Shown: piece after piece, positions 3,779 to 56,583 of the stretch
Numbering within the stretch: position 1 is the first letter of the stretch
Layout of the letters: each line of letters begins with the position of its first letter
Assembly (NCBI RefSeq): GCF_006345805.1
Contig: NC_043004.1
Location: 26,660,001-26,724,000, forward strand
Source of the DNA: Octopus sinensis
Taxonomy: Eukaryota
Direction: 5' to 3'
DNA length: 64,000 bases
Notes under the pieces: generated by a model
The model's database searches: none
Told to the model about the DNA's origin: nothing
What the model saw: only the letters and a program-made list of their open reading frames with translations
Translations under genes and position numbers: made by a program

Positions 3779-3885
3779 CATATGTATATATGAATGTATG
3801 TATACAATTGCAGCGGGGAAGGTGTTTGTAAGCCATTTAAGAAACACACAAAATCCGTTAGATTCACTTTAACATTTAAATTTAA

Positions 3886-3935
3886 TTTTCAAAATATTTT
3901 CGTCGCTTTGAGACCGCGACCTGTTCACTGACAAA
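3886..3935 (-). ncRNA. Hammerhead-like motif with variant core
   Basis: Minus strand: tttgtca GTGAACAG gtcgc-ggtctcaaa-gcgac GAAA atattt tga; 5-bp stem II followed by GAAA, core deviates from CUGANGA. Confidence 0.45.
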
Positions 3936-3961
3936 ACTTCATGCAGCACGAACATTTTCAC

Positions 3962-5041
3962 TAGTACCCACAAAGGAAGGAAGCAGGTTGCTCTTGCAGC
4001 TTATATAATAACTGTCCAGTAGGAGGCTGAAGGGGTCACCTATGAGGCTACGGTGATACCTAGACCTGCTATCCGCAATAACAGTATTGTACCATCCAAC
4101 AGCAGATTAACCAGATCTCACACCTGTACAATTGCTATTCCCAGAGATAATAACTATAGAGAGCGTCACCGAAGACCTCGGTACAGCCGCCACGGATAAG
4201 GAACAATCCATAAACACAGATAAGGTGACCAGGCCCGCAACATATGTTACCACCAGTATAATTACCAGGCCTAGAAATGATGACCAATCCAGGACCAGCG
4301 ACTTGGAGGAGGTATCCGCTGTTCCCAGTACCGCCACCGCGGATGATGACCAAATACTTACCTTCAACACTGATGGAATGACCAGGGGTACCATTAGGGT
4401 CACATCTCATGTTTGTAAATAGATTGGATCTGCGAGTACTTCCTTCAAGCGACATTTTCTTAATCACCAATCATCCTTCAGAGTCCCAGAAAGACAGTTT
4501 GTCACTCCCTGGCTCGCCATGTGTGGCATCTCAAAGATCAAAGGACCCCGTGCGATATCAGAAGGAAATTAATTGATCATCCGGGCCCATATGTTAATGG
4601 AAGTGACCGTGCAAGATCCCACATCGCGGGAGAGCCAAAATTCTTAAGGGCTATACGAAATCTGGCACGTGGTCGGAAAGAAGTGTTTTATAAATGTGTC
4701 CACTTCAACCGCTACTCAATGGGAAATTGGATCTCCCCGTTTCCTTGTTATGTCGCACTGGGTCTATAAGAGATGTTCTTTTTTTTTCCTGGTTAAGGGG
4801 AAATAACCGGTCCTCATTAACGTTTTATTTTTTTGTTTTGTTAAGACGTATTTCTCGTTTTCCGAGCGTTTCCTCACGTCCGTGATATAGAAATTAAAAC
4901 TTTTTGTCTTTTATGTTGAGTGTGACTTATCTTTGTAATGAGATCGTTCACAAGCCGTTCACAAGATCGTTCCCAAGATCGTTCTCAAGGCTTTAACTTT
5001 GTGGATACAAAATCTTGGGTAAGATATAAAATTTTGTTGTA
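3962..5041 (+). mobile_element. Penelope-like element 3' portion with decayed GIY-YIG endonuclease
   Basis: CSCSLYNNCPVGG (3989), EGVTYEATV (4029), then *IGSASTSFKRHFLNHQSSF (4420), VWHLKDQ, RKEVFYKCVH; AT-rich tail ending at (TA)n. Confidence 0.85.
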
Positions 5042-5052
5042 CTATATATATA

Positions 5053-5136
<84 letters not shown>

Positions 5137-5393
5137 AATAATGAGAGTGACAAATTGAATATTAATTTAATTAATTTCAATTTAAAACCAGTAGCCTAGC
5201 ATATAGAAAAATCTGAAAATTCAGAAAAATTGTAATACATGCGTAGAATAGGGATGACCACTAAGTGGACATCCAATATGCTAGAAGATCACCTACGATC
5301 TCATTACAAAGAAAGGAATGTTCTCTAGAGAAATTCAGCAAACACCAGAACATAAGCGGGTAAGACAGATGAAAATATAAAAAAAACAGAATT

Positions 5394-5464
5394 GATAGTA
5401 GATCGGTTTCGTCATCAACGATTTTACTTACGTAATCATCGTCCGTGGACTCTTCAGTACGATC
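5394..5464 (-). ncRNA. Type I hammerhead ribozyme motif in a short repeat (about 5135-5500)
   Basis: gatcgta CTGAAGA gtc...gac GAAA Ccg ATC tactatc; stem I 6/7 bp, 40-nt stem II region, one mismatch in stem III. Confidence 0.8.
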
Positions 5465-5819
5465 GCTCCAATTCAATATAACCATCCCTAAATACAGCAA
5501 TATATATATATACATTTATAGGAAGCAGGGTTTGAAAATGCAAAGATCTTTTAAAGATGTTTATTGACTTGACGCGTATACGTGTGAGTATGCGTTTGTG
5601 TGTGTGTATGTGGGCGTGGTTATGTAATTTTCGGGTGTGTGTGTGTGCTATATTTATTGTTGTGAAGTGTGTGTGTACGTGTGAGTGCAAGTGTGTATGT
5701 TATTATTCTGTGTGGTGCGTGCAAATGTTAGGGTGTATTATTGTGAGTGTTTTGTTTGTATTGTTTGTACAGTGTCTATGTATACGTAGATTAAACATCT
5801 TCATTGATATACTCTTAAA

Positions 5820-6153
5820 ATCTATGAGCAATCCAAATCAAAATATAGCCTGTCTTCCCACAAATACCTGTTGGAGAATTGGAAACGCTACTTGGATGAT
5901 TGCCTCATCCTATGATCTCACACACTCGGCCAACTCAATGAATTCAAAAATTTAATCAACAGTGTCCACAACCATATCCAATTTACAATGGATTATAGTC
6001 AAGACCAACTTCCATTTCTAGATATTCATATTATAAAAAAAGAACCCAACATTGAAACTGATATCCACCACAAACCAACTGATTCCAAGCAATACCTCCT
6101 GTTCACCTCTAATCATCCAAAGCAAACGAAGACAAACATTCCCTTCAATCTAG
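5820..6153 (+). pseudogene. Penelope-like reverse transcriptase fragment
   Basis: WKRYLDDCLIL*...IQFTM...LPFLDI...ETDIHHKPTDSKQYL..SNHP..KTNIPFNL. Confidence 0.9.
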
Positions 6154-7149
6154 TATGACAGTCCACCGCCAACAATTGAGGGACCCACTACAAGATAGAT
6201 ACCACTGAGTAGCCATTTAGATTTCTGTGCACAAAACAAGTCCTCTAAATTCCTAGTTTCCCCACTGTACCACTGCCCAGACAACACCACTGACCTAACA
6301 CGAATAAATAAGGAAAACATACTTATTCAAAAATACAGACCACAACTCACCATACTCTAACATACCCCCCCCCCCCCGGTACTCATGCACAACAAACACA
6401 CACAAAAACACGCACAGATGTACAAACACGCAAAATACAATGCAAACTTCCCACACAAACTTATAGGCTAAATTTTTATATATGGAGTAGAGTGAATGTA
6501 TATGTAATCACATGTGTATATAGAGGTATACATACTCATATAAGCATATAGATACACAAATATATACATATGTATATACACGCTCTATGCACATACATAT
6601 ACATGTACAAATGCATATATACATACATATGTAAATAAACACGTAGAAATCATATTAGATATCATTCCAAAAATAATAAAGTTAAAAATAGTGAACCTAA
6701 TACATAAAACGAAATAGTATATCCTAATAAACAAATGATGAAAACTCCCAATGATAGTCATAAACATAACATCAACAATAAACACGACCATCATCATTAT
6801 AATAACAGTACAAAAAACTCAAGCATTACATGCTCTACAACAGAAATAGAACTCAGAAAAATATAAATCTTAATAATTACCACCTTCCTAACCACACTAA
6901 TATAAACAAACCTATAAATACTGGCAACATACACCATAGCTGTATAATTAAAGATAAAAATAGGAACATTAAGGCAACAGGCAGAAAACACAGGAATAAT
7001 CAAAATAAGACAATTTACTGAAATGATATGAATAACCATAATACTCTAATTAATAAGGATAGGAACAACATAGTAAAAAAGAAATTTATACCATGTATGT
7101 AAAGATTTGACTCTCTGAATACAACCAAATTCTTTACCAAAGCAGACAA

Positions 7150-7320
7150 CGAGAAAACCATTTGGATAATAATTCCCTTTGCAAAACACTTAAAATCTAA
7201 CTTTATTAGATGCATCAGAATAATTATTAATGAAAACTTCAAAAACAATAAATACGCAAAAATATTTAATAACAAACATATTAGATTTGGATTTTTCAGT
7301 TTCACCTAATCTTTTTAACA
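7150..7320 (+). pseudogene. PLE RT-endonuclease linker remnant
   Basis: TIWIIIPF...NFIRCIRIIINENF...KIFNNKHIRFGFS..PNL resembles the IIWFNPP..KIFN..VSYS..PN linker of Neptune/Naiad-type PLEs. Confidence 0.6.
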
Positions 7321-7451
7321 ATAAGAAACTAGATGAATTCTATCAAAGCAAACTTACTAAAACTGAACATAGAAACTGAACGCAGAGCTTCCTCTCCACC
7401 TTACTTTTTGGATGCAGCACAAATCTACACGTCTCCGTTAAAACATCCATT

Positions 7452-8406: not shown

Positions 8407-9120
8407 ATACATACATATTAAATATATAAATAGTGGCATTGTAGGATGGCATGTATTTTGTTTCTCATGTTATTCCTTCTAGAAAATAGCTGATAATCAG
8501 TGTTAAGAAATATTAGATCCATTTCAGTAATTCATATATCAATGGAGTTTCTTACATGATATTTTAACGTGAATGTGTTGTTTGGTCTCTTTAAACAATT
8601 ATTGCAAAAACAAAACTATTTTTCTGGTAACACATGCTTTTATACTCAAGCTAAATCTTCATTTAAACAAATCTCACTGTAAGTTTCTATCTCCTCCCTC
8701 TCACAAGAATTATAATGTAAGATAAGTAAGTATCGAATTAAAAATTCTTTGAAGTTAAATATTTTAATTCCGTTTATCCCACAATTTCAGTCACTTGTTT
8801 TCACTTTTTCTTGCTTATAACCTCTACTTCACTTATCCCATTGAATATTCCTAAAATTCACTATTTCAAATCGTTTTAGCACACGACACCACTCCTCCTT
8901 CTCTCAGCATTTTGTCACAAAATTTTCTCATTTCCTCTCTCATTGAACGATCCTAAAGTTAAATATTTCAATTCATTTTAAACACTTAATGGACATTGCT
9001 TTTACTCTCACATTGAATGTTCTTAAAGTTAAATTCTCCAATTCATTTTAGCATACAATGATTCTGTCTTTCCTTCTCTCTCCTTTTTGTTTCAGACTCT
9101 CATTGAATTTTCCTTTTCCT

Positions 9121-11139: not shown

Positions 11140-12130
11140 GAGGTAACATCAATAGAACCAAATGGGCAACTAAATGTGTGAAAGTATGTGGGAGTAACTG
11201 AAGATCCCTTCAAAAACTGCTTTAACAATCACAAGTCCTCATTCAACATCCTGGAGAGACACAATGCCACAACTCTGGCCAAGCACTTTTGGTCTTTGAA
11301 AGAAAGCACCACCGAGTACACCATAAAGTGGAAGATCCTGGAGAAATGTACACTGCACTTTAATAGTAGCAAGAAGCGTAGGTTGTGCCTGGCTGAGAAA
11401 AGAGAGCCAGCACTCAGGCATTTACCTGAATAGCAGAAGTGAAGTGTTTAATCCTTGCCCACATGAAAGAAAGTACATCCTATCATACCAGTGTGCCTCA
11501 TCATGACTACAATCATCAGTCCCCTTAGCTTTGTTTCTCATCCAATACTCTGGAGTCCAGCAAAGAGTTTGACCAGAGAATTCATCAATGCACCCACATA
11601 CAAACATGCTTGCCCCAACACAGTGGACACCTATCAAATAGACTGTTTTCCCCTCCCCACCAATATAAACTCACTCTTACACATTGTTCACCTACACACA
11701 CCACATACACACATAAATCCCCCACAACCTTAACCAATATAGAAAGAAAACACTAATGAACACAGTTCTGTATGCCTGCATCCCCTGAAAAAGTTATACG
11801 CATAGTACCACCACTCATACCTAATTTCCATAAGAACATCAACCTGAAAGATGCATACATGTCCCACAAACCCTTCAAGAAAGCTCATATTGACTTGCAG
11901 GAAGACCAACCCAGTGGCAAGGTTTCAGTACCAAGGGACATAACTCTTGACTTGATCCCCTACTTGTTTCATTCCATAATCTTTTCACGCCAGCCGAAAA
12001 CCAGATGTGTCCAGTCACTGCCAACTATAGAGAGCAATTGCCAAATAGGTGAAAAATTGCATTTTTATGCAACATTGTGGATTAAATATTTAGTAGATAA
12101 TACAATAAAGTATTGGACACAATAGGAAGC
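11140..12130 (+). mobile_element. Penelope-like element 3' portion with GIY-YIG endonuclease remnant (11140-11485)
   Basis: KYVGVTEDPFKNCFNNHKSSF...TTLAKHFWSLKE...IKWKILEK...LCLAEK...YLNSRSEVF.PCPHERKY. Confidence 0.88.
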
Positions 12131-26127: not shown

Positions 26128-26752
26128 TTGTTGTTCACTGGCTTTGAAATATATATATATATATATATATAGGAGATAAATAAAAATATATGCATACATA
26201 CAAACATATATGTACGTACCTACATCTACATGTATATATACATGCATATATAAATAATTATACGGAAGTACAGGACATCACAATAAGACGTAGAAACAGA
26301 AAAAGCCAAAAAACAAAAAACAAGAAAACGGAAAACGAAAACAAATACAGGACAGGTTACACAAGGACAAACCCCCGTCATCAGCTGTCGCTAGAGGAGT
26401 CAGGCATGTTTCGAAGGCATAACAGAACACTAATCCAATAGGCCTTCCTGCGAGAGAATTAAAATAAAATTTCAAGCAGCGGGGCACAATGAGTACGAAC
26501 ACAAACAAGACGTAACAATAAGACTGCAAAATTAAAATACATGTACAAAAACAAACACAAGAGGACGAACGAAAAAGCCTTTTTTCTGGCATAGACAAAC
26601 ATAAAACTGCAAAAATAAAAATACATGTACAAAAAGTACAATTAGTTACAAAACGAGAAAATAACAAGAATACTATACAGGAAATTAACCACACAAGGGG
26701 ACGAACGAAGAAGCCTTTTGCTGGCAAGGACGAAAGTATACATAAACATCAA

Positions 26753-26840
26753 CACTACAGCTGTTTCAGATGTGTTCTATATTGATGAACAAAAGCGTTA
26801 CATCAAACAAAAAGAAAAAGAAAATTGTTTTCCTCAGGTG
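26753..26840 (-). ncRNA. Type I hammerhead ribozyme motif with long stem II
   Basis: cac CTGAGGA a..(63 nt)..t GAAA C agct G TA gtg. Confidence 0.8.
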
Positions 26841-27332
26841 AATAAAGAGTAAAATTTAACACTTAGAATTTCTCACAAAACAGAGCATAGAGCAAATTGA
26901 CCCTACTAACTGGGTTACAGCTGAGAGAGTGAACAGCGAAAGGTATTACAGAGTATATATTCATGCTGATACATTAATGAATTCGTTTGAGGGACCAGAA
27001 TAAAGGAAGGAAGTAGGGGGAAGACATAGAAAGAGAGAAATGGAGGGAGAAAAGAAGGGGAAAAAAGAAAAAAGGAAAAAAAGAAGTCCCATCACTTAAA
27101 GGAATATTTCAAAGTGTTTTGGGAACCAACAGCTGAAGGGACAATCCTTAGTTTATTTATTACTTTTTATCAGTGGTGCAGCATAACATCCCTTCAGCTG
27201 TTTGTCCTCAAGATTTTTCACTGTAATAGCTTCTAATATTCACTCTCCCAGCTGTAACCTTGTTGTAGAGTCAATTTGCATTATGCTCTATTTTCTAGGA
27301 AATTTATGTGTTGACTTTTATTATTGTTTCAC

Positions 27333-27741
27333 TTTCTCTTTTCTCTCTTTTACTTGTTTCAGTCATTTGATTGCAGCCATGCTGGAACACCGCCTTTAAT
27401 CGAGCAACTCGACCCCAGGACTTATTCTTTTTTAAGCCCAGTACTTATTCTATCGGTCTCTTTTGCCGAACTGCTAAGTAACGGGGACATAAACACACCA
27501 GCATCGGTTGTCAAGCAATGCTAGGGGGACAAACACAGACACACAAACACACACATGCATATATGTATATACATATATACGACGGGCTTCATTCAGTTTC
27601 CATCTACCAAATCCACTCACAAGGCTTTGGTCGGCCCAAGGCTATAGTAGAAACACTTGCCCAAGATGCCACGCAGTGGGACTGAACCCGGAACCATGTG
27701 GTTGGTAAACAAGTTACTTGCCACACAGCCACTCCTGGGCC
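27333..27741 (-). mobile_element. Full-length SINE family A
   Basis: Complete tRNA-like head to gtaaaagag tail. Confidence 0.92.
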
Positions 27742-27798
27742 TGAAGAAAATGTTTTTTTTTTGTTGCATGATGTAACACATCTGAAGCAGCTGTAGTG
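27741..27798 (+). ncRNA. Hammerhead paralog of 26753-26840, interrupted by a SINE
   Basis: CTGAAGA aaatg..gatgtaacacatct GAAG C agct G TA gtg; its stem I 5' strand (cac) lies at 27330-27332. Confidence 0.7.
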
Positions 27799-27812
27799 AA
27801 CCTCAACCTATC

Positions 27813-28146
27813 TTGGCATCTTGGGCAAGTGTCTTCTGCTATAACCTCGGGCCGACCAATGCCTTGTGAGTGGATTTGGTAGACGGAAACTGAAAGAAGC
27901 CCGTCGTATATATGTATATATATATATATGCGTGTGTGTGTTTGTGTGTCTGCGTTTGTCCCCATTGACAACCGATGGTGGTGTGCTTATGTCCCCATTA
28001 CTTAGCGGTTCGGCAAAAGAGACTGATAGAATAAGTACTGGGCTTACAAAAGAATAAGTCCCAGGGCCAAGTTGCTCGATTAAAGGCGGTGCTCCGGCAT
28101 GGCCGCAGTCAAATGACTGAAACAAGTAAAAGAGTAAAAGAGTAAA
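27813..28146 (+). mobile_element. 5'-truncated SINE family A
   Basis: Matches the family A body and tail. Confidence 0.9.
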
Positions 28147-28154
28147 GTGTATAT

Positions 28155-34472: not shown

Positions 34473-34774
34473 ATAAGCATCTTTTAAAATTGCATTTTCA
34501 AACCTTCTTTCATATATAATTCCACTCGTGCGGTATCTTACAACTCCACTTTGTTATATATATATATATACACACATATATTTATCAGTGTGTACGAATA
34601 ACCCGGAAAAAATAAATAAATAGTTGCCAGGGTAGCAAAGATTCACATAAATGCCAAGGATATTATAGCCTGCTTATAACGGTAGAAATTCCAGGGTTGA
34701 GTGAAATGTTTTTGTATACTATAGATAAATTAAGAAATGTAATCAAACGCAGTTGTTATTCAAATCCTTTATAC

Positions 34775-34858
34775 TTCCAACATGTTTTGAAAAAAGCATT
34801 GATATTATTCCGGAGGGAATAAAATGATGTAAAGCAATGCAATCATCTCGTCAAGGAA
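34775..34858 (-). ncRNA. Decayed hammerhead motif with long stem II
   Basis: ttcc TTGACGA g..(59 nt: gcattg/caatgc, tattcc/ggaata)..c AAAA C at G TT ggaa. Confidence 0.65.
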
Positions 34859-35310
34859 AAAAAAGAAACAAAACACGTCAATAAGCCATTCGGTTAAAAG
34901 CTCCCCCCATGGTTTCGAAACACCAACTCCAAAATACTATACAATTCACCTTCTCAAACACCAGCTGCTGACATCACTTCTCACTTGACCAATGAAGTTT
35001 TACCTCCGATCAGAAATAAAACAAACTGACTTCTTGAGGGAATCAACTAACCGGAACGGTTGATGACCATTAGACAAAACTAATGACCAAGTCCTTACGG
35101 GGAACTCAATCAAGCAGAACGCTAAACTTGACCAAAACAAAAACAGGCTCTTTCTAACAATTAGCAATTCCCCAAATTTAATCAATAAAAATTCTATCAT
35201 TTTGCCATCCCCACATACAACCTAATTATCATTCAATAGAACTTAGGTAACCCTAGAAAAATTTAACTTAACAGGTACTATATAAAGCTGAGATGAACTC
35301 AACTGCATCA

Positions 35311-35425
35311 TAGTCTGATGATGGCTTAGCTCGCCGATTCTTCGAAGACAGTGTTAATACTATTTTTGCTAAAGAATATTAATTTTGCAATAATAAATCT
35401 TAGAGCGAGTTATAAACAGTAGCTG
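35311..35425 (+). ncRNA. Decayed hammerhead motif with very long stem II
   Basis: tagt CTGATGA ..tagctcgc...gcgagtta tAAAC a GTA gctg. Confidence 0.5.
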
Positions 35426-35600
35426 CTACACATCGTGACGTATATTTGCCACATTAAATATGGCTAACCCCTAAGGGTGGATGCTACTGTAGTTTGTAGC
35501 CCCAGGAGGACACCTCCTCCAGCTGGCTTTAGACACACTTTCTGTGCCCTATCAGTATTTGCAAAGGGAAGCCATCCTTCCCATCTTCAACTTATGATAC

Positions 35601-35643
35601 ACACGGACTGGAGTTTCTGGGTATTGACCCGTCATCGGCGTGT
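35601..35643 (-). ncRNA. Compact hammerhead motif with CCGAUGA core
   Basis: acacg CCGATGA c-gggt caat accc-a GAAA C tcca G TC cgtgt; 5-bp stem I. Confidence 0.7.
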
Positions 35644-35777
35644 GACAATCACAGTTGTCGATGAAAAGTAAGTTCCCTTAGCAAATACTTATCCCTTTTC
35701 CAGTATCGTAAAGACACTGATATCGAAAAGGTGTAATCAAGCAATAATAAATCTTAGAGCGATTTATAATTCGCTCT

Positions 35778-35985
35778 ACGTCTATTGAGGTGAAAACATT
35801 CTGTGCCGTATGAATATGTCCCTCGTTTAAGAAACAGATTGGGTTTATTTACATTTCTAAAGAAAAAAAGATACCCTTCCCCCACTCATAACCCTAAAAC
35901 AGATTGAAATACTAGGGTCATAATTATGAGTGACAATTTCATATGACACTGCTAGAAAAAACTGCCGTTCAAACCGAAAAGATCT
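35778..35985. mobile_element. Truncated Merlin-like MITE (one TIR)
   Basis: Matches the right half of 36433-36844. Confidence 0.85.
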
Positions 35986-36432
35986 CAGATATTATTTGAT
36001 GTAGAACACAATCCTTGAGTTAGAGTGGAAAGCTATATTTAATATATACATACAAATAAATACATACATATATATGTGTGTGTGTGTATGTACATACAAA
36101 GAGAGGCATACATATATATTGTTATAAAGCGGTCTTTTGCCACTGTTGTATCTGTCTTTGTACGACGGTTATCGCTCTGACAGATATTTCGAAGTCGTCG
36201 ATAGAATGTTTCTATGTGGCACTGTACAACTCCCACCCACCAGTTGTACAGTGTTATTATCCTCAAATGGTTGAATGGTTATACGTCTTCTCAATATCAC
36301 AGTATAATTACTATATCAACACAGAAACTACTATCAATACAGTTTATACGTACTCTCTCGATACCGGCTGATGTCACCTTACTTATTACAGTGATTGTGT
36401 CACTCCACTCATCAGGTGGTAGGAGTGTACCA

Positions 36433-36844
36433 GGATCTTTTCGGTTTGAACGGCAGTTTTTAAAAATAATTTCCGCGTAACTAAACACTTTTAAACTTCG
36501 TATACTGGTAGAATGTGTTTATAAAACATCTTTTTCTCTTGGCTTTATTGAGAAAATTCTATAGTTTGTAAGATATTTGTTGTTTTTTTTCTTCAATTTC
36601 TGCAATTTCAACCAATCAATGACGTCATTGAGGTAAAAAAAACCATTCTGTGCCGTATGAATATGTCCCTCGTTTAAGAAACAGATTGGGTTTATTTACA
36701 TTTCTGAAGAAAAAAGATGCCCTTCCCCCCACCACTAACCCTAAAACAGATTGAAATGCAATAGATCGATACTAGGGTGATAATTATGGGTGACAATTTC
36801 ATATGACACTGCTAGAAAAACTGCCGTTTAAACCGAAACGATCC
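36433..36844. mobile_element. Merlin-like MITE
   Basis: TIRs of about 28 bp (GGATCTTTTCGGTTTGAACGGCAGTTTT); 8-bp TSD gtgtacca at 36425-36432 and 36845-36852. Confidence 0.9.
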
Positions 36845-40978: not shown

Positions 40979-41607
40979 TTGTTTTCAAAACAAACTCCAG
41001 AAAGTTTTAATCATAAATCATAGATCTTATCCAAATATACAAGATGTGGTGACAGCTACGGATGATTGTCATCATGGCTGTGGGATTAGATAGTTGGTTT
41101 TGTAACCATATGGCTCTGAGTTTGAACAAAGATTGCAGCAGCTTCGGATAGTGTCTCCTACCAGAGTTTCGGGTTGATCAATGCTTTTGAAGGGGAATTT
41201 GTTTGAAAGAAACTGAATAGAGAAACATTGCATGCACACACAGACACAGACAGACAAATACACACACATTATGTAATGATGTGTATAGAATTATATGTAT
41301 ACAAATGTAGAACAAAGCTAACTGTAATATTTTGCTCAGAGAAACTTCACTCAATATGCTTTGTACGTTAAAAACACAGCTCACTTGGAGTAAAATCAAC
41401 AGACTGTTAGTTTCATTTAGCCTCTGCAGTGATGAACTAAATTGGGCTTTCATTCCAGTGAAGAAGCCATCGTTCCAGTGTAGAAACCATCAAACAAAAC
41501 ACTCGCTTATTCGTATGGAAGATGGACAGGCTTAAATCAGTATCAGTGTGAGTACTTCTATTGAAACACCATTAAATTAAAATACTTTTGTTTATACATT
41601 ACAAATG

Positions 41608-42030
41608 GGATCTTTTCAGTTTGAACGGCAGTTTTTTTCTAGCGGTGTCATATGAAATTGTCACCCATAATTATAACCCTAGAATCGATCTATTGCATTT
41701 CAATCTGTTTTAGGGTTAGGGTTAGGGTTAGGGGTGGGGGAAGGGTAGCTTTTTTTCTTCACAAATGTAAATAAACCCAATCTGTTTCTTAAACGAGGGA
41801 CATATCCATACGGCACAGAATGCTTTTTAACTCAATAGACGTCACTGATTGGCTGAAATTGCAGAAATTGAAGAAAAAAAACAACAAATATCTTACAAAC
41901 TATAGAATTTTCTCAATAAAGCCAAGAGAAAAAGATGTTTTATAAACACATTCTACCAGTATACGAAGTTTAAAATTTTTTAGTTACCTAGAAATTATGT
42001 TAAAAACTGCTGTTCAAACCGAAAAGATCC
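41608..42030. mobile_element. Merlin-like MITE containing (TTAGGG)4
   Basis: Same TIRs as 36433-36844, opposite orientation; 8-bp TSD tacaaatg at 41600-41607 and 42031-42038. Confidence 0.92.
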
Positions 42031-42193
42031 TACAAATGTTATACACATTGTTCTTTTAGTCTCTCTCTCACTCTCTCTTTCTCTATCTAACTATCTATCT
42101 ATCTATCTATCTATCTATCACTATATATATATACACACACATATATAATTGTATACATACATACATACATACATGCATACATGCATACATACA

Positions 42194-43186: not shown

Positions 43187-43193
<7 letters not shown>

Positions 43194-43338
43194 TTTAGAG
43201 GACTGACCTCTAAAAGTGGACAGCCTATATGCTAAACATAGACGTCAAATCGCCATTACCACAAAGAATGACGATTTGACGTCTGTGTTTAGCATACAGG
43301 CTGTCCACTTTTAGTGGTCAGTCGTCTAAATTTTGTAT
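43187..43338. repeat. Fold-back with arms of about 70 bp and a 9-nt loop
   Basis: 43187-43257 vs 43267-43338; homologous to the tail of the HHR element at 5170-5285. Confidence 0.9.
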
Positions 43339-43429
43339 GTAAAACAATTTTTAATCTTTGGATTTTTTAAAATATGCTAAGCCACTGGTTTTAATCGATT
43401 AATATCTATTTCTACCCTTATTTAATTTT

Positions 43430-43471
<42 letters not shown>

Positions 43472-44983: not shown

Positions 44984-46313
44984 CTTTTTTTTTCTTCTTT
45001 CAAATTTGCTTCCATTTCTTGCCGAGTGTCTTCCCGACTCCTAGGGCAAAGAAACTCATAGTATACATTGGTAGGCCATTAAACCAAACTCAGAAGTTCG
45101 TTCATTTTTTTTTTTTTTTTTTAAAGTTAAATTAACATACATGAGCAGCAACAGTTCTCACATCGACAATGCTCTTCTCAATACGTGTGATGTACCAGTT
45201 AAGACAATCTTTTGCACTTCTTGCAGGGATGGTAAGCCAGGGATCATTCTCATATAATTTTCGGTTCCCTTCTTGATCATTCCTAGTGCTCCTACGATCA
45301 CTGGTATTGTAACCGCCTTGAGATGCCACATTTTCTCAATTTCAATGAGTAGGTCTTTATATTTTCTGAGCTTGTCAAACTCTTTCGCTGAGATATTATG
45401 ATCACAGGGGATGCTCATGTCGATCAATAAGCAAACTTTATTGTTTTGGTCTTTCACAACAATATCTGGTTTATTGGCCTTGATGGTTCGGTCTGTATGT
45501 ACTGGAAAGTCCCACAGAATGGTTACATTTTCTCCTTCAGTTACAGCCTCAGGGTGGTGATTATACCACTTGTCGGCAGTTTTGATATTGTAATGCCGAC
45601 TTATTAGCCAGTGGAGATATTGGCCAACTCTGTCATGTCTTAATTTATACTCCACTGGTGCTAAGACTTTACATCCAGAGATTAGGTGGTCCACTGTTTC
45701 AATCATGTCGTTGCAGAATCGGCATTTTGGGTCTGCTCCATTTTTCATCACATTGGCCTGGTAGTTCCGGGTTAATAGGCTTTGATCTTGAGCAGCCAGG
45801 ATGAAACCTTCGCTCTCTGCTTTTAGCCCTGAGCTCCGTAGCCACTGATGGGTTTGCTTCTGGTCAACATCAGCTTGTTTGCTGCGGGTCACATATTTGC
45901 ATTGCAGAGGTTTCTCCTCCCACCTATCAGCCAATTGCTCGTGCGCTTTCTTCATTGCCATCATTTTCACCTTCTTTGCAACAATAGTTGCCGTACTTCC
46001 CTCGGGTTGTTCAGTTTGGGTATCCTGCACGAGATCAATAGCAAATTTTTTGCTTTCCTTTATGATAGAATGAAGCTTCTTTCGTCTCTCGTGATTTTCC
46101 ACGAGCTTTAGCATCCAGTCAATCGATATTTCGAGATATTTGGCCAGTCCAATTGTGGTTGTTTTGTAAGCTAGTTCAAATTGGATCAGGCCTCGACCTC
46201 CTTGGGCTCTGGGAAGGTAAAGGCGATCTACGTCTGCCTTTGGGTGGTGCATCCTATTACAACTCAGCAGCTTGCGTATTTTTCTATCTATATTCTTTAC
46301 TTCACCCATATTA
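44984..46313 (-). mobile_element. 5'-truncated R4/Dong-type non-LTR retrotransposon inserted in (TAA)n
   Basis: (TAA)n at both junctions; ORF plus a 3' UTR of about 170 nt. Confidence 0.9.
45158..46310 (-). CDS. C-terminal part of the R4/Dong protein: RT thumb, CCHC knuckle and restriction-like endonuclease
   Basis: RLYLPRAQGGRGL, AAQDQ, CRFC..ETVDHLISGC, RHD, ILWD, KPDIVV..LIDMSIP, K..KY; about 384 codons without a stop. Confidence 0.92.
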
Positions 46314-46365
<52 letters not shown>

Positions 46366-46366
46366 C

Positions 46367-46575
46367 AAGGTATTGAGCAGGCAGAAGCATTAGCACCCTG
46401 GATGAAATGCTTAGCGGTATTTCGCCTGTTATGTTCTGAGTTCAAATTCCAGCGAAGTAGACTTTGCCTTTCATCCTTTAGGGGTCACTGAATTAAGTAA
46501 GTGAAACACTGGGGCTGATGTAATTGACAAGTCCATTTTCCCCAAATTTCAGGCCTTATGACTTTAGTAGAAAGG

Positions 46576-46638: not shown

Positions 46639-46641
<3 letters not shown>

Positions 46642-47190
46642 CTACAGCATCACCTACTATACATCTGGTCTTTTCTAAGGATGTGGATTGTACTTTTCAG
46701 CACAATCTTTTGAATTTCTCTGAGACATGGTTCTCCTGGGATGTTACCTCAATGTGTCTGACATCCCCTTTTTATCATACATAGGACACCTACAATAACA
46801 GGAACAGTTCTCACTTTAAGATACCACATCTTTTGCTTTTCAATTTCCAGGTCCTTACATTTACTTAACTTGTCAAATTCCTTTACAGATATATTTTTAT
46901 CAGTAGGAACATTTAACATTTTCTTCCCTGTCTTTAATGACTATATCTGGTCATTTATCCTGGATCATTCTGTCGGTGTTGACTTGAAAATTCCAGAGGA
47001 TAGTGACATTTTTACCTTCAAAAAGTGGCTGAGGATGATATTCATACTAGTAAGCTGTAAACAGGTTTTGTAGTGTTTACATATTTTCCAATGTAAATAC
47101 TATCCTACCCTATCATGACGATTTTTGCATTAATTTGGTGTTAGCACAGGACATCCCAAGACGAGATTGTCTGTTGTTGGGGGTTACATG
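46639..47190 (-). mobile_element. Older, decayed R4/Dong 3' fragment
   Basis: Homologous to 45158-45720 (ILWNF..TDRM, KEFDKLSK.KDLEIEK.KMWYLKV.TVPVIVG.L, EIQKIVL); abuts (TAA)n. Confidence 0.85.
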
Positions 47191-47221
47191 GATAGATCAA
47201 AACAGTTTGATTCAGAATCCT

Positions 47222-47261
47222 TGGTACTCTGGGTTTCAAGCATGTGGCTAGTCTTCACCCA
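47222..47261 (-). ncRNA. Hammerhead-like motif with GUGAAGA core
   Basis: tgg GTGAAGA ct-agc cacat gct-t GAAA C ccaga G TA cca. Confidence 0.55.
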
Positions 47262-47473
47262 GTGGAGTCTGAATGAAAGTTTAATTAAAGAGAGTCAATG
47301 ATTATTACTGGACATTAGTTTGTGATTGGTCAAGAAAGGTCACACAATATTGATGTATTTCAGTGACAGCAGTTAGAGGGAAAATTCTGCGTGATGAAGA
47401 GGAAATCGACCGTGTAGTGGTATATTCTGTTGAATGCTTAGCCATAAATAGAACTGAAATCAGTAAAAAGTTT

Positions 47474-47843
47474 TATATAAAAATTATAAATATTATTGGG
47501 ATCAATAGTGTTATTTTCCAGCTAAATAAAGCACGATAAAGGTAAAATTACAAATATAAAATAGTGGTGCAACAAAGCACTAATGTTTGCTGGAAGTAGC
47601 AGTCGATAACAGTATGGCGCTATGTAATGCTTCACTGAATATATACTGGCAAAACTTTTTATAATCATTACCTGCACACATCTTTGCCAGTATATATTCA
47701 GTGAAGCTTTATCAACTGCTATTTCCAGCAAACATTGGTGCCTTGTTGCACCACTATTTTATATTTCTAACTCTACCTTTACTGTGCTTTATTTAGTTGG
47801 AAAATAATACTATTGTATCCCAATAATATTTATAATTTATATA
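47474..47843. repeat. Imperfect fold-back with arms of about 160-180 bp
   Basis: 47474-47653 vs 47683-47843; one indel of about 18 nt. Confidence 0.9.
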
Positions 47844-47852
47844 TATATATAT

Positions 47853-48238: not shown

Positions 48239-48619
48239 TATCTGTTAAAATGAGATGTCAGTATTATTTTCATTTTTGTGTAATTTAGATAACAATTCAT
48301 TCACCACACCCTTTATATATATATATATATATATAATTTCAACAATTGAGGGTAAAATAATTAATTATTAATCAATTTCACCAAGTATTCAGTATGTAAA
48401 GGGACCATTATAGGCGAATTCAAAATATTACATTATATATAAGGGCTTAGTAAAATAAATTACTTTGCCACATACTGAACTCATTAGAAATAGCAGCTAA
48501 AGAAATTTCTTCAGCTATTTCTAATACTTAAAGAAGATCTCCCTCAGATAGTGTTTGCCTAAACTAACTCACAAAAGTATGGGGGAAAAAACATTAAAAA
48601 ATCAAGTGCAAAGGTTATT

Positions 48620-48671
48620 TGAGAATGTACGTTTCTAGATTAGTCAATTCGACATTTCTTTCTTCAGCTCA
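48620..48671 (-). ncRNA. Hammerhead ribozyme, left-arm copy with one stem III substitution
   Basis: tgag CTGAAGA...GAAA C gtac A TT ctca. Confidence 0.85.
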
Positions 48672-49331
48672 GAATTCCTTGAATCGGATTTGGGAACACT
48701 GAAAGTCGGGAGCATACCCTTTCGGCTTCTAATCACCTCTAGAATTCTGCTCGAACTAAAAGTGCTATCAAATTCGAATATGCAAGCGAAGAATTTCTGC
48801 TCTCCCCTTTCCACCAGCGTGGGTTAAAATTGACAAACACCATGTATTAACGCAGAATTTAGCAGAGAGAGATGAATTATAATTTCAACAATTGAGGGTA
48901 AAATAATTAATTATTAATCAATTTCACCAAGTATTCAGTATGTAAAGGGACCATTATAGGCGAATTCAAAATATTACATATATATAAGGGCTTAGTAAAA
49001 TAAATTACTTTGCCTTATATATAATGTAATATTTTGAATTCGCCTATAATGGTCCCTTTACATACTGAATACTTGGTGAAATTGATTAATAATTAATTAT
49101 TTTACCCTCAATTGTTGAAATTATAATTCATCTCTCTCTGCTAAATTCTGCGTTAATACATGGTGTTTGTCAATTTTAACCCACGCTGGTGGAAAGGGGA
49201 GAGCAGAAATTCTTCGCTTGCATATTCGAATTTGATAGCACTTTTAGTTCGAGCAGAATTCTAGAGGTGATTAGAAGCCGAAAGGGTATGCTCCCGACTT
49301 TCAGTGTTCCCAAATCCGATTCAAGGAATTC

Positions 49332-49383
49332 TGAGCTGAAGAAAGAAATGTCGAATTGACTAATCTAGAAACGTACGTTCTCA
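49332..49383 (+). ncRNA. Type I hammerhead ribozyme with intact core
   Basis: tgag CTGAAGA aagaaat-gtc gaatt gac-taatcta GAAA C gtac G TT ctca; GUU site at 49377-49379. Confidence 0.88.
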
Positions 49384-49566
49384 AATAACCTTTGCACTTG
49401 ATTTTTTAATGTTTTTTCCCCCATACTTTTGTGAGTTAGTTTAGGCAAACACTATCTGAGGGAGATCTTCTTTAAGTATTAGAAATAGCTGAAGAAATTT
49501 CTTTAGCTGCTATTTCTAATGAGTTCAGTATGTGGCAAAGTAATTTATTTTACTAAGCCCTTATAT

Positions 49567-49598
<32 letters not shown>

Positions 49599-51464: not shown

Positions 51465-51495
<31 letters not shown>

Positions 51496-51539: not shown

Positions 51540-51800
51540 AATTTTAAATTAATAATAAAAGGCTAAAATTATCAATTAAATTAATTAATCAATCAATTAA
51601 TTAATAATTTTACCAAGTAGATCAGTACGTTAAAATAATCTTTATAGGTAAAATTATACAAATATTTTATAATTATAAACATAATTATAATTAGGGTTCA
51701 GCTAATTGCTTCACCACACACTGACTTTAGAAATAGTAGTTAAAATTCCATTTCTACTACTGTAAGAATCTCCATGACAGTAACACACTTTTTTACATAG
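51540..51800 (-). mobile_element. Diverged relative of the 48.3-kb unit tail
   Basis: aattttaccaagta..cagta.gt.aa..tataggt.aa, ccacacactgac..tagaaatagtag match 48350-48500. Confidence 0.6.
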
Positions 51801-53034
51801 GCAAAGAGAAAAACAATGAATCAACACAACCAGGATTAAATTCCTCTGTTATGGCCTGGAGGATGATAATGAATAGGAGGTGGGGCTGAGGACTGACCCT
51901 TGATAAACACCTACCTGCACACTAATTCATCAGTGTAGCCATGGCCAATTCTTACCTTACTAACAGCACTCCTGTTAGCCATTTGTCTATCCATAGCTTC
52001 CTCAGAGATCACCTTATCACAGAGCAGGGCACTCTGCTGAAAATTTATACTCAAGACCTTTCAGCTGTTGCACAGTTAAGAGTAAATAAATTTTTTTACT
52101 TACATAAAACTTTGAGGGTTTTAGAAAATAACAAACTCTTTCATAATCAATCAAAGCAATGATATAACTTTTCAACAACTTCCCAGTCAGTGCTGTATGT
52201 TTCCATAAGTCTTTATCCTGTATTCAGTATTTAAGTTGTATTTCAATGTAACCTGCCACTGCAACCCTTAGCCATCTCACTTTTCTGACTATTTAAATAG
52301 ATATTTTCTTTGTAATTCTACTAAATTTATTTTCATCTTGGGCTCACATTTTCTTTAAAGCTTTTAGACACTCTCAGCCTATAATTAACTCTCCAGGTAA
52401 TATAAAACAGTAACCACCCTGAAATACTGGATATTATGTTTAATCAAAATTATGGAAATACATTGCATTCACTTCATAAACCACTTTTATAACCCTTTGT
52501 CAGGTTAGAGAGGACCTTTGTCAAAGATCATCTCTAAACTGTTTTACAAATACTTCAGTTATACACATGTAATGAGACAATCTGTTCATACTAAACTCAA
52601 ATCCTTATGCATTTTCTTCTTCTATCCATATACATAGATAGGATATTTTGTAATTTAATCTAGTAAGCTGGACCATTTTTCTTTTTAATGTCCTATACAA
52701 ACATGTATTAGCAGTCATCATCACTTGATCGCAATTATTGCACTTTTAACCTTACTCAGGATGAGATCCTATTTTTATTTGTCTTTATTCAGATTCTTTA
52801 ATCTAAATATAATACTGGACATTCTTCTTTTTATTTAGTTTTCTATCTATGGCTCTAGTTATCATATTTCTGAACATATTTCTTTAAGTCTTCATGTATT
52901 TTCTGTGTATCCTAATATATTTTTCTATTTACATCAATTCCTATCATTTGAATTCCTCCCAAGCCCCTTAAATACTTTCTAAGAGATAGTACTCCTACAA
53001 AAAAATTCACATATTACACACAAAGTGTGTAATA

Positions 53035-53570
53035 TACAGTGTGTGGGCTAAATATGACAGTTTGCATAAGACAAAGTGGAAAAAAGAATATCCTATCCAA
53101 AAATAAAAGTATTTTAGAAAATCAAAAAATATCAACTAGATTATGGCTGGAAGATATAGTTTACTCAAAATTGGTGCCCTCAGCTTCCACAACAATATCA
53201 AGATGATTCTGAAACCTGGTGCATGCATTCCTCACTGTATCCCTAGGATGACTTATGAACACCCCCTTAATCTTGACCACCAGCTCAGCCTTGCTGTTGC
53301 AAGCAGAATGGTTGGTGTCATTCTCAACTGCACCCCACACATAGTAATCCATGTGCTTACAATCAAGAGGATTGAGAGGCCGGAAATTGGGGCTGGTGAA
53401 GTTGTAGAAATTATTTGACAACCATTTCTTACTCTTTCTGGAGGTATGGCAAGGAGCCGAATCCTGCTGCTATACATGTGGCCTTGAAACAGCAACCCTC
53501 TCCAGCCAGGATTTGACTACAGTTTCCAGCAGTTTCACATGGGCATTTGAATTGAACCTAAGGCCCTGTT
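53035..53570 (-). mobile_element. Tc1/mariner (maT/DD37D-like) 3' part
   Basis: QQDSAPCHTS...P.NPLDC..MDYYVWG...RNACTRF..L..VVEAEG..FE*; terminus ta-cagtgtg. Confidence 0.82.
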
Positions 53571-53599
53571 CACCAATTGTTGGTCATAGCTTTGTTGTC

Positions 53600-53800
53600 T
53601 CCACTGTAACTGTCCATATTACATCTTACTGCCTTTACAATGTTCACAGATCATCAAGCACAAGTTGGCATTTTGATACCCAGTAAAAATCATCATAATA
53701 TCGGTTACTCTTTTCCAATATCTAAATGGATTCCAGTTCTCCATGTCCGCTAACTTTTTCTCAACTACAACTTTAATCTTTATTCTTCTCAGATACTGTT
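53600..53800 (-). pseudogene. Possible PLE RT relic
   Basis: FRYWKRVTDIMMIF resembles WKRYVDDI. Confidence 0.4.
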
Positions 53801-54488
53801 GACTGTTCACCAATACATCAAGCTGTTTCTGAAAATGGAAATTTTAAAAAGAATCATCAAATTTAGCCTGGACACTCTATATGAACCAAATACATACTAG
53901 TTAGACAACAGACAAACACATGATTAAAAGTCTCATAAAGCAAAATACAAAACTCATCACACCAAACCATAAACTGACACGAATATATGACAAAAACAAG
54001 ATAAAATAAGATAAAAACCTTCCTTATTAAAACACACCATAAGCTTGTAAACCCGGAAACAAACTTAGAATGGTCAACATAATTTACAAATTTGAGCGTA
54101 AAAATGCAAGTTACAAACAGCACATTTTCTACTGTTACATGGGTCAGATAAGTATAACACTAACATATAGACTTAACATGCATTTTATAACAAAAAATGA
54201 TTGCAATTTACTACCTACACTACACACCATAAATCAAAGCTACATAAGCAAATATTTTCAGAAAACACTTCCATTTTTTATAGAATCCTCCACAGAAACA
54301 GATGATAGATTCTGGAAGCAATACTAATATCATAACACTAATATTGCTACAGTCAACATATAACATATTTTACTAGTGTAAATCCAATGATATAACACAC
54401 TAATGCTTTAATGGCCAAGTTTTAGTTGAATAATCAATATAAATATAAGGGTTCTGCAAAAAGCAGTGCAGAAGCTCAATCCATTCAA

Positions 54489-54532
54489 TATCCTGAAGAT
54501 AAGGTTGAGGTAGTCTTGAAACATTAATGATA
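54489..54532 (+). ncRNA. Decayed hammerhead motif
   Basis: tatc CTGAAGA t-aagg..tctt GAAA C attaat gata; NUH site damaged. Confidence 0.55.
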
Positions 54533-54618
54533 GAGTTGGATTTGGGAACTTTATCGTTTGAAATGAAATGTAAATGTCTGATACTCAGGGTTGAACAAAT
54601 TGAATAGTCATGTTTGCA

Positions 54619-54658
<40 letters not shown>

Positions 54659-54663
54659 TTTAT

Positions 54664-54870
54664 GGTGGTGATCTGACTGAATCATTAACATATGGGGAAA
54701 ATACTTAGCGGTATTTCGTCTGTCTCTATGTTCTGAGTTCAAATTCTGCGAAGGTCAACCTTGCCTTTCATCCTTTTGGGGTTGACAAAATTACTACCAT
54801 TCGAACACTGGGGGTAATGTGACCAAATTAAAACCATTGCCAAAACTGCTTATCTTGAGCCAAAATTTAA
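54664..54870 (+). mobile_element. SINE family B
   Basis: Family B head and core. Confidence 0.8.
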
Positions 54871-55668
54871 AATCAATATATATGTATGTGTGTGTGTGTA
54901 TCATTGTGTGTTATTGTGCAAATGTATATGTATATGTCATACACACACTCACACACACATTCACACATGTAAACAGTGTTGGAGTGCATGCGTTGTACCT
55001 GATGTAACAAAGTTTGGGAAGCAAAACTTAACCGTTGCTTTGCTATGCATAAATATCTTATACTCACCTGACATAATCTGCTTTTAGTAAAAGAATTGCA
55101 GAAAATGTAGAACAAATATCAATAATGAGGGGAGATATTTAGTCCTGTTCCCTGAATACATATTGAAACGCAGTATATTTATTGGATATTTATTCTAAAG
55201 AGAAAAGGCTGAATCAACATAAGCATGGTATTAAATCAGAGAGTTTGGCCATTAAACCAAGTTTTGACAATGTTCAATCAAGTTCACAGCAAATACACCA
55301 TCATTCTGCTTAACAGCAATCATTCATAGGAGACAGATACATGGAATGAAAATATATCTCTACACATTTCCTTCTTCATTAATCTGCAGACAGATAACAG
55401 AAATCAATAAAGACTTAGAAATAATATTCCTGGGTTAGATGCCAGTTGAAAGGTGAAAATGAAAGTTGGATGTTTAGTGCACAGTCTGTGCATCAGTTTT
55501 AATCACACACACACACATGCATATATGTAATATGCATATGTGTATATAATATATATATATATATTGATAAAAATGGTAAGACAACAAAAGAAAGAAAGAG
55601 ACCTGGATATTATGTAAATAGAGGAATTTATCTGTAAATGTAATATGTGACAGTTATTCGGTAGCCAT

Positions 55669-55729
55669 GATAAAACTCCGAGTTTTGGATGCCGAGGTGC
55701 AAATCCACGCCGCTATCTCTTCAGTTATC
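55669..55729 (-). ncRNA. Hammerhead motif with a CpG-type G12A change
   Basis: gataa CTGAAGA gat..atcc AAAA ctc g gaG TT ttatc; 5-bp stem I. Confidence 0.78.
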
Positions 55730-56378
55730 CGGCCATCAGAAAAATGCTATGAAAAATGACTGTTATACAAAGGGAAATTACTGTGTGATTGACCGTTATT
55801 AAGATAAAAGAGCTATTTGAATGACCGCTAAGTAAGGGGAGGGAGTAAAAAAGTTCATAGTATTCGCATAAGCGCGCATGTTCATACCTTCACATGCATA
55901 CCTGCACATCCATGTGCGTGCACCTAAAAGTATACATTCATCCACAAAGCTGATGCATATTTGAATATGTTTGTATTAGTGTAAAGGAATCTCTGTATTT
56001 TCTATAACTTTTTAGTATATAGTTGGTCATTGTGACCATTTAGCATTGACCTAGTTTTCTTGATACAAAATCTGTTTGCCAAATAGCAATAAACAATATC
56101 TAAGGCATTATAATCCCCTTTCTACTTTAATTTCTCTAGGAATAACTTCTGCCATTTATTTCACTCCTACCTACTTCTATAAATAGAAAATCTCTTTTGT
56201 CTCCATTCAACTGAATATCCCTCCCCACTTTCTAGCAGTTCCATATAACTTAAAGAATTCTAATACCTTAATGTTCTTAACCTTCAAATCAACATCTCTG
56301 TTTATATATCTACCCTCTTTATAATGTTATCAATTAACATGAAAATAAGTATATGTATTGATGGGAAACCTCTATAAA

Positions 56379-56462
56379 TGGCTGATGATTGCTCAACATT
56401 TTAAAACTGTTGTAATACTTACAATGTTTAATAAAATGATGAAGCATGAAACGATCGTACCG
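56379..56462 (+). ncRNA. Type I hammerhead ribozyme motif with long stem II
   Basis: tgg CTGATGA t-tgct..(59 nt in total)..agca-t GAAA C gatc G TA ccg. Confidence 0.82.
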
Positions 56463-56583
56463 AATTACCAAAGATATTCTTGTTGCTTATTTTGATTATA
56501 ATCACCCTATGGATTTATATGGATAACACCATACAAAATTCTGGTGCATCTAGCTTAAGTACCATATTCATTTGAATCTACAG

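What the first reader, a model, noticed from the sequence alone, without database searches (positions are those of the whole stretch)
3800..56580. Recurrent back-to-back architecture: pairs of HHR-bearing 3' ends facing outward, including pairs from different families
Seen: same-family inverted pairs at 26750-27800, 43187-43430, 47474-47843 and 48332-49569. Apparently different-family pairs occur at 3810-5041 (minus HHR-like end plus a plus-strand GIY-YIG PLE), 34570-35440 (HHRs 34775- and 35311+) and 55565-56580 (55669- and 56379+). Where HHRs give the orientation, the left piece is minus and the right piece plus, usually with TA-rich microsatellite outside. Known: Penelope insertions often have an inverted 5'-truncated copy. 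Inference: each end of a break in (TA)n primes its own cDNA, the two templates can be unrelated RNAs, and the cDNAs are joined in the middle. This would be a two-template integration or break-healing system that builds chimeric palindromes.
Basis: partly seen in the sequence, partly recalled or inferred. Interest (0 to 1): 0.82.

Follow-up and report, generated by a model that had tools for sequence, protein, structure and literature searches.

The report
Back-to-back Penelope retrotransposon ends
These back-to-back pairs of ribozyme-bearing ends are mostly the known inverted insertion pattern of Penelope-like jumping genes; pairs mixing two families are rare in this genome and likely mostly later neighbours, though one could record two different RNAs copied into one DNA break.

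Summary
All seven structures exist, with the left piece minus and the right piece plus. The four same-family pairs are the known inverted, 5'-truncated insertion of Penelope-like elements (PLEs). Their arms end at two different fixed sites and share private variants, so they likely come from double priming on one source RNA. Earlier scan notes found this many times, in this genome and others.

The mixed-family pairs do not form a system. In 1 Mb of unselected DNA, mixed neighbours were 2 divergent against 10 convergent, while same-family neighbours were 22 against 3. Among 321 fetched copies, 1 had a direct mixed head-to-head junction; about 94 had a same-family one.

3806-5041 joins a young element (3.5% diverged) to an old one (14%). 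34571-35393 is three pieces. Only 55565-56584 has halves of equal age and a blunt, unique junction. It could be a two-RNA event, but it breaks the tail/no-tail rule of true pairs. Two-RNA twin priming is already published for LINE-1. My repeat library is incomplete, so a rare leak of a few percent is not excluded.

The parts
3686..3791 (.). (TA)n tract outside the 3' end of element A
3806..3944 (-). Family A: young (~3.5% from consensus) non-coding ~190-nt HHR element, G3-C8 core at 3892-3928, ends at the no-tail start site
3942..3952 (+). ~10-nt fold-back stub of A, joined to B through 2-nt microhomology (AA); similar stubs join other A copies to non-PLE DNA
3951..5041 (+). Family B: old (~14%) 5'-truncated PLE with broken GIY-YIG-type ORF end, decayed HHR, no-tail end; best other copy 81% over 750 nt
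5135..5500 (-). F-related HHR element (HHR 5401-5457) whose 3' end faces B's 3' end across the TA tract 5043-5133 (convergent pair)
26753..27055 (-). Family K left arm with HHR, no-tail end
27221..27811 (+). Family K right arm with HHR and tail, interrupted by a SINE at 27337-27742
34571..34890 (-). Family C PLE 3' end (~7%), decayed HHR, tail end
34891..34899 (+). 9-nt fold-back stub of C, ~2-nt overlap with X
34898..35153 (+). Family X: internal 3'-UTR piece of an RT+GIY-YIG PLE (~10%), without its own 3' end
35152..35393 (+). Family H 3' end (~12%) with decayed HHR, joined in tandem to X
35416..35741 (-). Family I HHR element, later insertion with ~28-bp target duplication, convergent with H
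43190..43430 (.). Family F same-family inverted pair: short left arm (-, no tail), right arm (+, tail); HHR not included
47419..47847 (.). Family J same-family inverted pair: left arm (-, tail), right arm (+, no tail); HHR lies further 5' in longer copies
48332..49563 (.). Family G, very young 547-nt tandem HHR unit (retrozyme-like), inverted pair: left arm (-, tail), right arm (+, no tail)
55565..55945 (-). Family D PLE 3' end (~3.5%), HHR ~55669-55725, tail end, (TA)n outside
55946..56584 (+). Family E PLE 3' end (~3.0%), HHR 56382-56456, near-complete tail; blunt (0-1 nt overlap), unique junction with D

Best explanation
The structures are 3' ends of Penelope-like retroelements; the same-family pairs likely come from one PLE complex priming both ends of an AT-rich cut on one source RNA, and the mixed-family pairs are likely mostly later juxtapositions. 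Shown in sequence: in same-family pairs one arm ends at the inner start site (no tail), the other at the outer site (tail); the arms share private variants; the central junctions vary. Inferred: the GIY-YIG nuclease cuts both strands in (TA)n; each 3' end primes cDNA at one of the two start sites of the same RNA (or of sibling RNAs from one locus); both cDNAs stop early and are joined 5'-to-5' by end joining with 0-3 nt of microhomology, sometimes after a short fold-back. Inferred for mixed pairs: PLE debris is dense and all families land in the same TA tracts, so a new element's 5' end is sometimes joined to an older neighbour with loss of the DNA between them (A to B; probably C to X/H), or a later deletion fuses two neighbours. 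D/E cannot be told apart from a two-RNA event.
For: Same-family divergent 22 vs convergent 3, mixed 2 vs 10 (tandem 15 each), neighbours within 2 kb in 1.0 Mb outside the window. At the 5' junction of 243 fetched copies: 73 same-family inverted arms within 40 nt (66 of 224 without family F, whose query was itself a palindrome), 1 mixed inverted (L087). 0 of 39 f42 copies and 0 of 39 D-tail copies had a recognised mixed partner, while 20 of the 39 D-tail copies had a D partner. Nearest mixed neighbour within 1.4 kb: 5' side 9 divergent vs 19 tandem, 3' side 22 tandem vs 40 convergent; bias-matched odds ratio 0.86, p=0.81. Direct abutments without TA also occur in the other orientations (5 on the 3' side). 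Tail/no-tail complementarity: G 14 of 14 resolvable insertions (read by eye), A 10 of 14 (4 short), E 5 of 7, D 16 of 19 and C 11 of 12 (read by eye), with 1 tail/tail case. Arms share variants: G 1/51 mismatches within pairs vs 515/1682 between insertions; variant letters shared with own partner vs other copies: A 13/52 vs 66/1438, D 56/133 vs 811/4974, E 10/39 vs 58/1104, C 45/167 vs 477/4602. A 5/144 vs B 28/199 from consensus, p=0.0008; no B copy above 81% over the 750-nt body. Fold-back stubs like those at A|B also occur in 5 of 29 other A copies joined to non-PLE DNA. A/B is no-tail + no-tail and D/E is tail + tail, against the rule of true pairs.
Against: D and E are the same age (10/286 vs 9/301, p=0.82) and join bluntly with no TA and no remnant of either element on the far side. 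C and X are not separable by age (p=0.27). Two more direct mixed head-to-head joins turned up, both with family D (L087: f23/D; G000:C3:60168186-60168406: f42/D-tail). Three direct mixed joins in 64 kb is more than the sample rate predicts, although the window was picked for this. The library is incomplete: 0.16 pieces/kb recognised outside the window vs 0.41 inside, and 44 of 99 unexplained 5' flanks match nothing held. It also favours 3' ends, which biases the raw 2-vs-10 count towards convergent. Shared variants between arms could partly come from gene conversion. For D, C and E the focal arm was selected for having the tail. Searches scored only 40 candidates each.
Confidence: 0.6

Rival explanations
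1. Rare two-RNA twin priming: usually both cut ends use one RNA, but in a small share of events the second end is extended on another active PLE or retrozyme RNA. D/E, and perhaps f23/D and f42/D-tail, are such events; A/B is not.
For: Equal age, blunt unique junction and TA-type repeats on both outer sides for D/E. Two further direct mixed joins involve D; one pairs an f42 copy ending at that family's common 5' end with only the ~40-nt tail of D between two TA tracts. The same outcome is published for LINE-1 (PMC11702581; PMC13174262). The PLE protein is predicted to be a dimer and extends both strands (PMC11167929).
Against: Rate no higher than direct abutments in other orientations; 1 of 321 copies, upper 95% bound 1.7% before correcting for library gaps. 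D/E is tail + tail, seen in 1 of 17 resolvable D pairs. A deletion between two neighbours in one TA tract gives the same picture.
Confidence: 0.25
2. Self-priming (fold-back) of one cDNA or an antisense template makes the same-family inverted pairs, as proposed for rotifer Penelope; mixed pairs are juxtapositions.
For: Palindromes at many central junctions and short fold-back stubs; arms share variants; proposed in PMC3846280.
Against: A fold-back copy of a no-tail cDNA cannot supply the tail on the other arm, yet arms are almost always tail + no-tail. In some copies the second arm is little more than the tail (L006, L016) or a non-overlapping upstream piece (L040, L047, L066).
Confidence: 0.1
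3. A general two-template integration or break-healing system in which each end of a (TA)n break picks an RNA independently from the pool.
For: Three direct mixed junctions in this window, each unique.
Against: Independent picks predict many mixed pairs among the co-active young families, random tail status and mixed subfamilies within pairs. None of these is seen.
Confidence: 0.04
4. Each mixed pair is one composite element with two HHRs that moves as a unit.
For: None found.
Against: No other scored hit crosses the D|E, A|B or C|X junction (40 candidates scored each), and no cross-family link appears among the family sets apart from microsatellites and one convergent C/D flank.
Confidence: 0.01

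Closest known systems
Complex insertions of EN+ Penelope-like elements: inverted 5'-truncated copy and one-sided tail (Craig et al. 2021, PMC8557442, passages seen; Arkhipova et al. 2013, PMC3846280, passages seen)
   Same: Head-to-head truncated copy at the 5' end, tail on one end only, (TA)n targets, HHR in the terminal repeat, microhomology 5' joins.
   Different: Tails here run to about 60-150 nt in the families measured (A, D, E, C, G), against the 30-40 bp described. In the passages seen these papers describe same-family arrangements only, and PMC3846280 found no evidence of cross-mobilisation between families.
Poseidon_Ac in vitro TPRT (Frangieh et al. 2024, PMC11167929; parts 1-2 of 4 read, covering the main text)
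   Same: Cuts and extends both strands at AT-rich DNA; two RT start sites define the tail; predicted dimer.
   Different: They saw no difference in start site between strands in vitro and did not model inverted insertions; the genomic pairs here use one site per arm.
LINE-1 twin priming on two different RNAs (PMC11702581 and PMC13174262, passages seen; supplements not opened)
   Different: There the single event is shown by de novo capture or a shared target duplication. Here TA tracts hide duplications, and no such case for PLEs turned up in my four paper searches.
Metazoan minimal HHRs and non-LTR retrozymes (Cervera and de la Pena 2014, PMC4209133, passages; Li et al. 2026, 10.64898/2026.07.22.740005, first of 5 parts read)
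   Same: Type I HHR with palindromic stem III; dual HHRs 100-700 bp apart on opposite strands tied to truncated PLEs; tandem non-coding units (family G).
   Different: Long loop II in several families here, and a natural G3-C8 core in family A (the passages seen list U3-A8).

Membership tests
EN+ Penelope-like elements | RT plus C-terminal GIY-YIG endonuclease ORF upstream of the terminal repeat | tested here: met
   Longer copies of B, C, D, E and X run into sense-strand ORF pieces matching RT/GIY-YIG proteins. P0002 passes the Pfam GIY-YIG cut-off; P0029 and the D ORF hit below it. The window's own B copy matches only weakly (E=0.002). Not shown for A, F, G, H, J, K.
EN+ Penelope-like elements | Type I HHR in the terminal repeat, sense orientation | tested here: met
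   Motif seen in each family or its longer relatives, except X, where none was found. Cleavage not tested.
EN+ Penelope-like elements | Inverted 5'-truncated copy and one-sided tail | tested here: met
EN+ Penelope-like elements | Clade assignment by RT phylogeny (Poseidon, Neptune, Nematis, Hydra) | not tested
   No tree built.
Non-LTR retrozyme (family G, 48332-49563) | Tandem non-coding units each with an HHR | tested here: met
   547-nt unit in arrays of up to several copies, 97-100% identical, HHR in the unit; no ORF of 150 aa there.
Non-LTR retrozyme (family G, 48332-49563) | Self-cleavage and circular RNA | not tested
   No RNA data examined.
Two-RNA twin-primed chimera (as for LINE-1) | Two different elements in opposite orientation with a direct junction | tested here: met
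   A|B, C|X and D|E.
Two-RNA twin-primed chimera (as for LINE-1) | Both halves of the same age | tested here: inconclusive
   Met for D/E (p=0.82), not met for A/B (p=0.0008), unclear for C/X (p=0.27) and C/H (p=0.05).
Two-RNA twin-primed chimera (as for LINE-1) | Single event shown by one target duplication or an empty allele | tested here: inconclusive
   TA tracts hide duplications; no contig of related organisms joins across the D/E site.
CACTA/MITE DNA transposon (considered for 26750-27800) | Fixed terminal inverted repeats with target duplication | tested here: not met
   Copies extend past the CACTA-like end on one side only, have variable centres and carry an HHR.

The most novel reading that the evidence does not exclude
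Penelope-like machinery occasionally writes two different RNAs into the two ends of one cut. The D/E pair at 55565-56584 (and the f23/D and f42/D-tail joins elsewhere) would be such events, the first seen for PLEs. They would show that both target ends prime independently, and that a PLE RNA and a short non-autonomous hammerhead RNA can be used at the same break, a direct trace of trans-mobilisation.
Probability: 0.3. Interest if true: 0.55.

Novelty: new member of a known kind. Interest (0 to 1): 0.3.

Why it matters
How PLEs form their head-to-head insertions is still open: self-priming has been proposed, and in vitro work shows two start sites and extension of both strands. The counts here (complementary ends, shared variants between arms) favour coordinated double priming on one source RNA and put a low ceiling on two-template events. 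If the D/E junction is a true two-RNA event, it extends a mechanism known for LINE-1 to PLEs and would link retrozyme-like RNAs to a specific PLE enzyme. As a genome-wide break-healing system it is not supported.

Tried and rejected
Rfam found no hammerhead in the window, only microsatellite-driven miRNA matches. A strict HHR descriptor found 0 hits and a loose one was at shuffle level; later descriptors allowed palindromic stem III and long loop II.

I first read 26750-27800 as a CACTA-type MITE; rejected. I first read L066 as a mixed pair (D plus a foreign ORF); the ORF is D's own upstream part. Apparent mixed pairs therefore need full-length references.

An apparent recurring C/D antisense link was one convergent flank plus microsatellite. 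The first library was contaminated by flanks and was rebuilt.

Empty-allele test for D/E: contigs of organism C hold both unique flanks at about 5% divergence but break at the microsatellites, and none joins across the site. In three organism C runs nothing covered 55900-56060 at 86% likeness. A hole in contigs proves nothing, so this is not counted as evidence. No such test was run for A/B or C/X/H.

A word search of earlier findings with eight terms gave nothing. Paper searches for Penelope with twin priming returned 2 unrelated-looking papers, seen as listings only. Structure prediction and covariance models were not used.
Full report
SETTING. The window is G000:C8:26660001-26724000 of a 2.7-Gb animal genome. 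A broken RT fragment in it is 83% identical to an Octopus protein, so an octopus is likely. Family letters (A-K, X, f-numbers) are my own labels.

OBSERVATION. All seven structures exist with the left piece minus and the right piece plus. The motifs are type I hammerheads with a palindromic stem III and often a long loop II. Rfam misses them, but a descriptor scan found 37 in 1.06 Mb against 5-9 in shuffles, and intact versions occur in other copies. Several window copies are decayed. Longer copies of B, C, D, E and X run into sense-strand ORF pieces of RT/GIY-YIG type, so these are 3' ends of Penelope-like elements. A and G look non-coding.

CORRECTIONS. The pairs at 43187 and 47474 have no HHR in the window. 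B's HHR is destroyed. The third mixed 'pair' is C(-), a 9-nt fold-back, X(+) and H(+), followed by a later element I(-) with a ~28-bp duplication. The window also holds four convergent mixed neighbours, as many as divergent ones.

SAME-FAMILY PAIRS. These are common and strongly oriented: 22 divergent, 3 convergent and 15 tandem within 2 kb in 1.0 Mb of unselected DNA outside the window (p=1.6e-4). Of 243 fetched copies (249 minus 6 duplicates), 73 had an inverted same-family arm within 40 nt of the 5' end; 66 of 224 without family F, whose query was itself a palindrome. The two outer ends are complementary, one at the inner start site and one with the tail: G 14 of 14 resolvable insertions out of 17 (by eye), A 10 of 14 with 4 short arms, E 5 of 7, D 16 of 19 with one tail/tail, C 11 of 12 (by eye; the automatic counts over-called tails because alignments ran into TA). 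For D, C and E the focal arm was selected for the tail. All four window pairs follow the rule. The arms also share variants: in G, 1 mismatch in 51 informative comparisons within pairs against 515 in 1682 between insertions; in A, D, E and C the share of variant letters found in the own partner is about 2.6-5.4 times that in other copies. Gene conversion could contribute. The inverted copy and one-sided tail are published PLE features (PMC8557442; PMC3846280; PMC4209133; passages seen). A purified PLE protein cuts and extends both strands and starts at two sites that define the tail (PMC11167929, main text read). My inference: one complex primes both ends on one source RNA and the two truncated cDNAs are end-joined. 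Pure fold-back cannot supply the tail on the second arm, although short fold-back stubs occur. Earlier scan notes reached the same reading in this genome and others.

MIXED PAIRS, GENOME SAMPLE. In the same 1.0 Mb, mixed neighbours within 2 kb were 2 divergent, 10 convergent and 15 tandem. The library favours 3' ends, so I also made a bias-matched comparison around the 243 copies: 5' side 9 divergent and 19 tandem, 3' side 22 tandem and 40 convergent; odds ratio 0.86, p=0.81. Direct mixed head-to-head joins: 1 of 243 (L087, f23/D), 0 of 39 f42 copies and 0 of 39 D-tail copies, 20 of which had a D partner. The upper 95% bound is 1.7% for 1 of 321. One more was seen in the sample: an f42 copy joined to only the tail of D between TA tracts (G000:C3:60168186-60168406; junction unique among scored hits). 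Direct TA-free abutments occurred 5 times in the other orientations. Limits: the library recognises 0.16 pieces per kb outside the window against 0.41 inside, 44 of 99 unexplained 5' flanks match nothing held, and each search scored 40 candidates. A true rate of a few percent is therefore not excluded.

MIXED PAIRS, WINDOW. All three junctions are TA-free, and none recurs among scored hits, so they are not composite elements. A/B: A is 5/144 and B 28/199 from consensus (p=0.0008), and the best other B copy is 81% over 750 nt, so no recent source for a B template is evident. A ends in a fold-back stub with a 2-nt overlap, as in 5 of 29 other A copies joined to non-PLE DNA, and both ends are no-tail. 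This reads as A inserted beside an old B. C/X/H: again a stub and a ~2-nt overlap; ages 6.9, 9.8 and 12% (C vs X p=0.27, C vs H p=0.05). One event would need three RNAs; unresolved, but a later insertion is simpler. D/E: 10/286 and 9/301 (p=0.82), blunt junction at 55945|55946, microsatellites outside. This is the one good candidate. Against it, both ends carry the tail, seen in 1 of 17 resolvable D pairs, and a deletion between two neighbours in one TA tract gives the same picture. The empty-allele test gave no contig across the site and is not counted.

COMPARISON. I found no PLE case in four searches. Earlier scan notes list single-locus PLE candidates in other genomes, unchecked by me.

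VERDICT. Real structures of a known kind. Double priming is a good model for same-family pairs. A two-template system is not supported. A rare two-RNA leak, with D/E as an example, has a probability of about 0.3. Interest 0.3.

Noticed in passing
window 3892-3928 (-); family A, L001-L030: The hammerhead core has a natural G3-C8 swap (GUGAACA) throughout this young family; the double swap only partly rescues cleavage in vitro (PMC11167929). Other families carry U3-A8.
   Followed up: partly
G000:C3:60168186-60168406 (L287:8186-8406): A short HHR element (f42, minus) joined head-to-head to only the ~40-nt tail of family D, with TA tracts on both outer sides; the junction is unique among scored hits.
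   Followed up: partly
L087 (G000:C23:14163605-14166890): A short HHR element (f23, minus) truncated inside its hammerhead and joined with a 1-nt gap to family D.
   Followed up: partly
L391-L429: Many f42 copies (roughly 15 of 39 by eye) stop at the same 5' position directly against (TA)n; possibly the RNA 5' end or a TA microhomology hotspot. The query ended at that position, which biases the count.
   Followed up: no
L118, upstream of the E copy: Very AT-rich DNA directly at the 5' junction that looks mitochondrial; no clean reading frame under table 5, not tested further.
   Followed up: partly
L103, upstream of the E copy: GC-richer coding-like sequence joined directly to the 5' end of E; source not identified.
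   Followed up: no
window 5814-6357 (+): Broken PLE RT fragment joined to a GIY-YIG end by a large internal deletion (P0002 residues 396-510, then 700-772).
   Followed up: partly
window 11182-11482 (+): Another GIY-YIG-type PLE ORF fragment, related to family D.
   Followed up: no
window 60059-60528 and 27337-28149: Inverted arrangements of an abundant SINE-like repeat; one copy splits the K hammerhead from its stem I.
   Followed up: no
window 45158-46441 (-): 427-aa open frame that looks like the 3' part of a LINE (RT end, zinc knuckle, REL-type nuclease; recalled, not scanned), interrupted by a SINE; a related piece follows at ~46640-47300.
   Followed up: no
window 35778-35987, 36432-36844, 41606-42031: Copies of a repeat with 28-bp terminal inverted repeats, MITE-like.
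   Followed up: no
L018 (G000:C30:11168958-11172102): Tandem array of about eight family A units separated by TA tracts of varying length.
   Followed up: no
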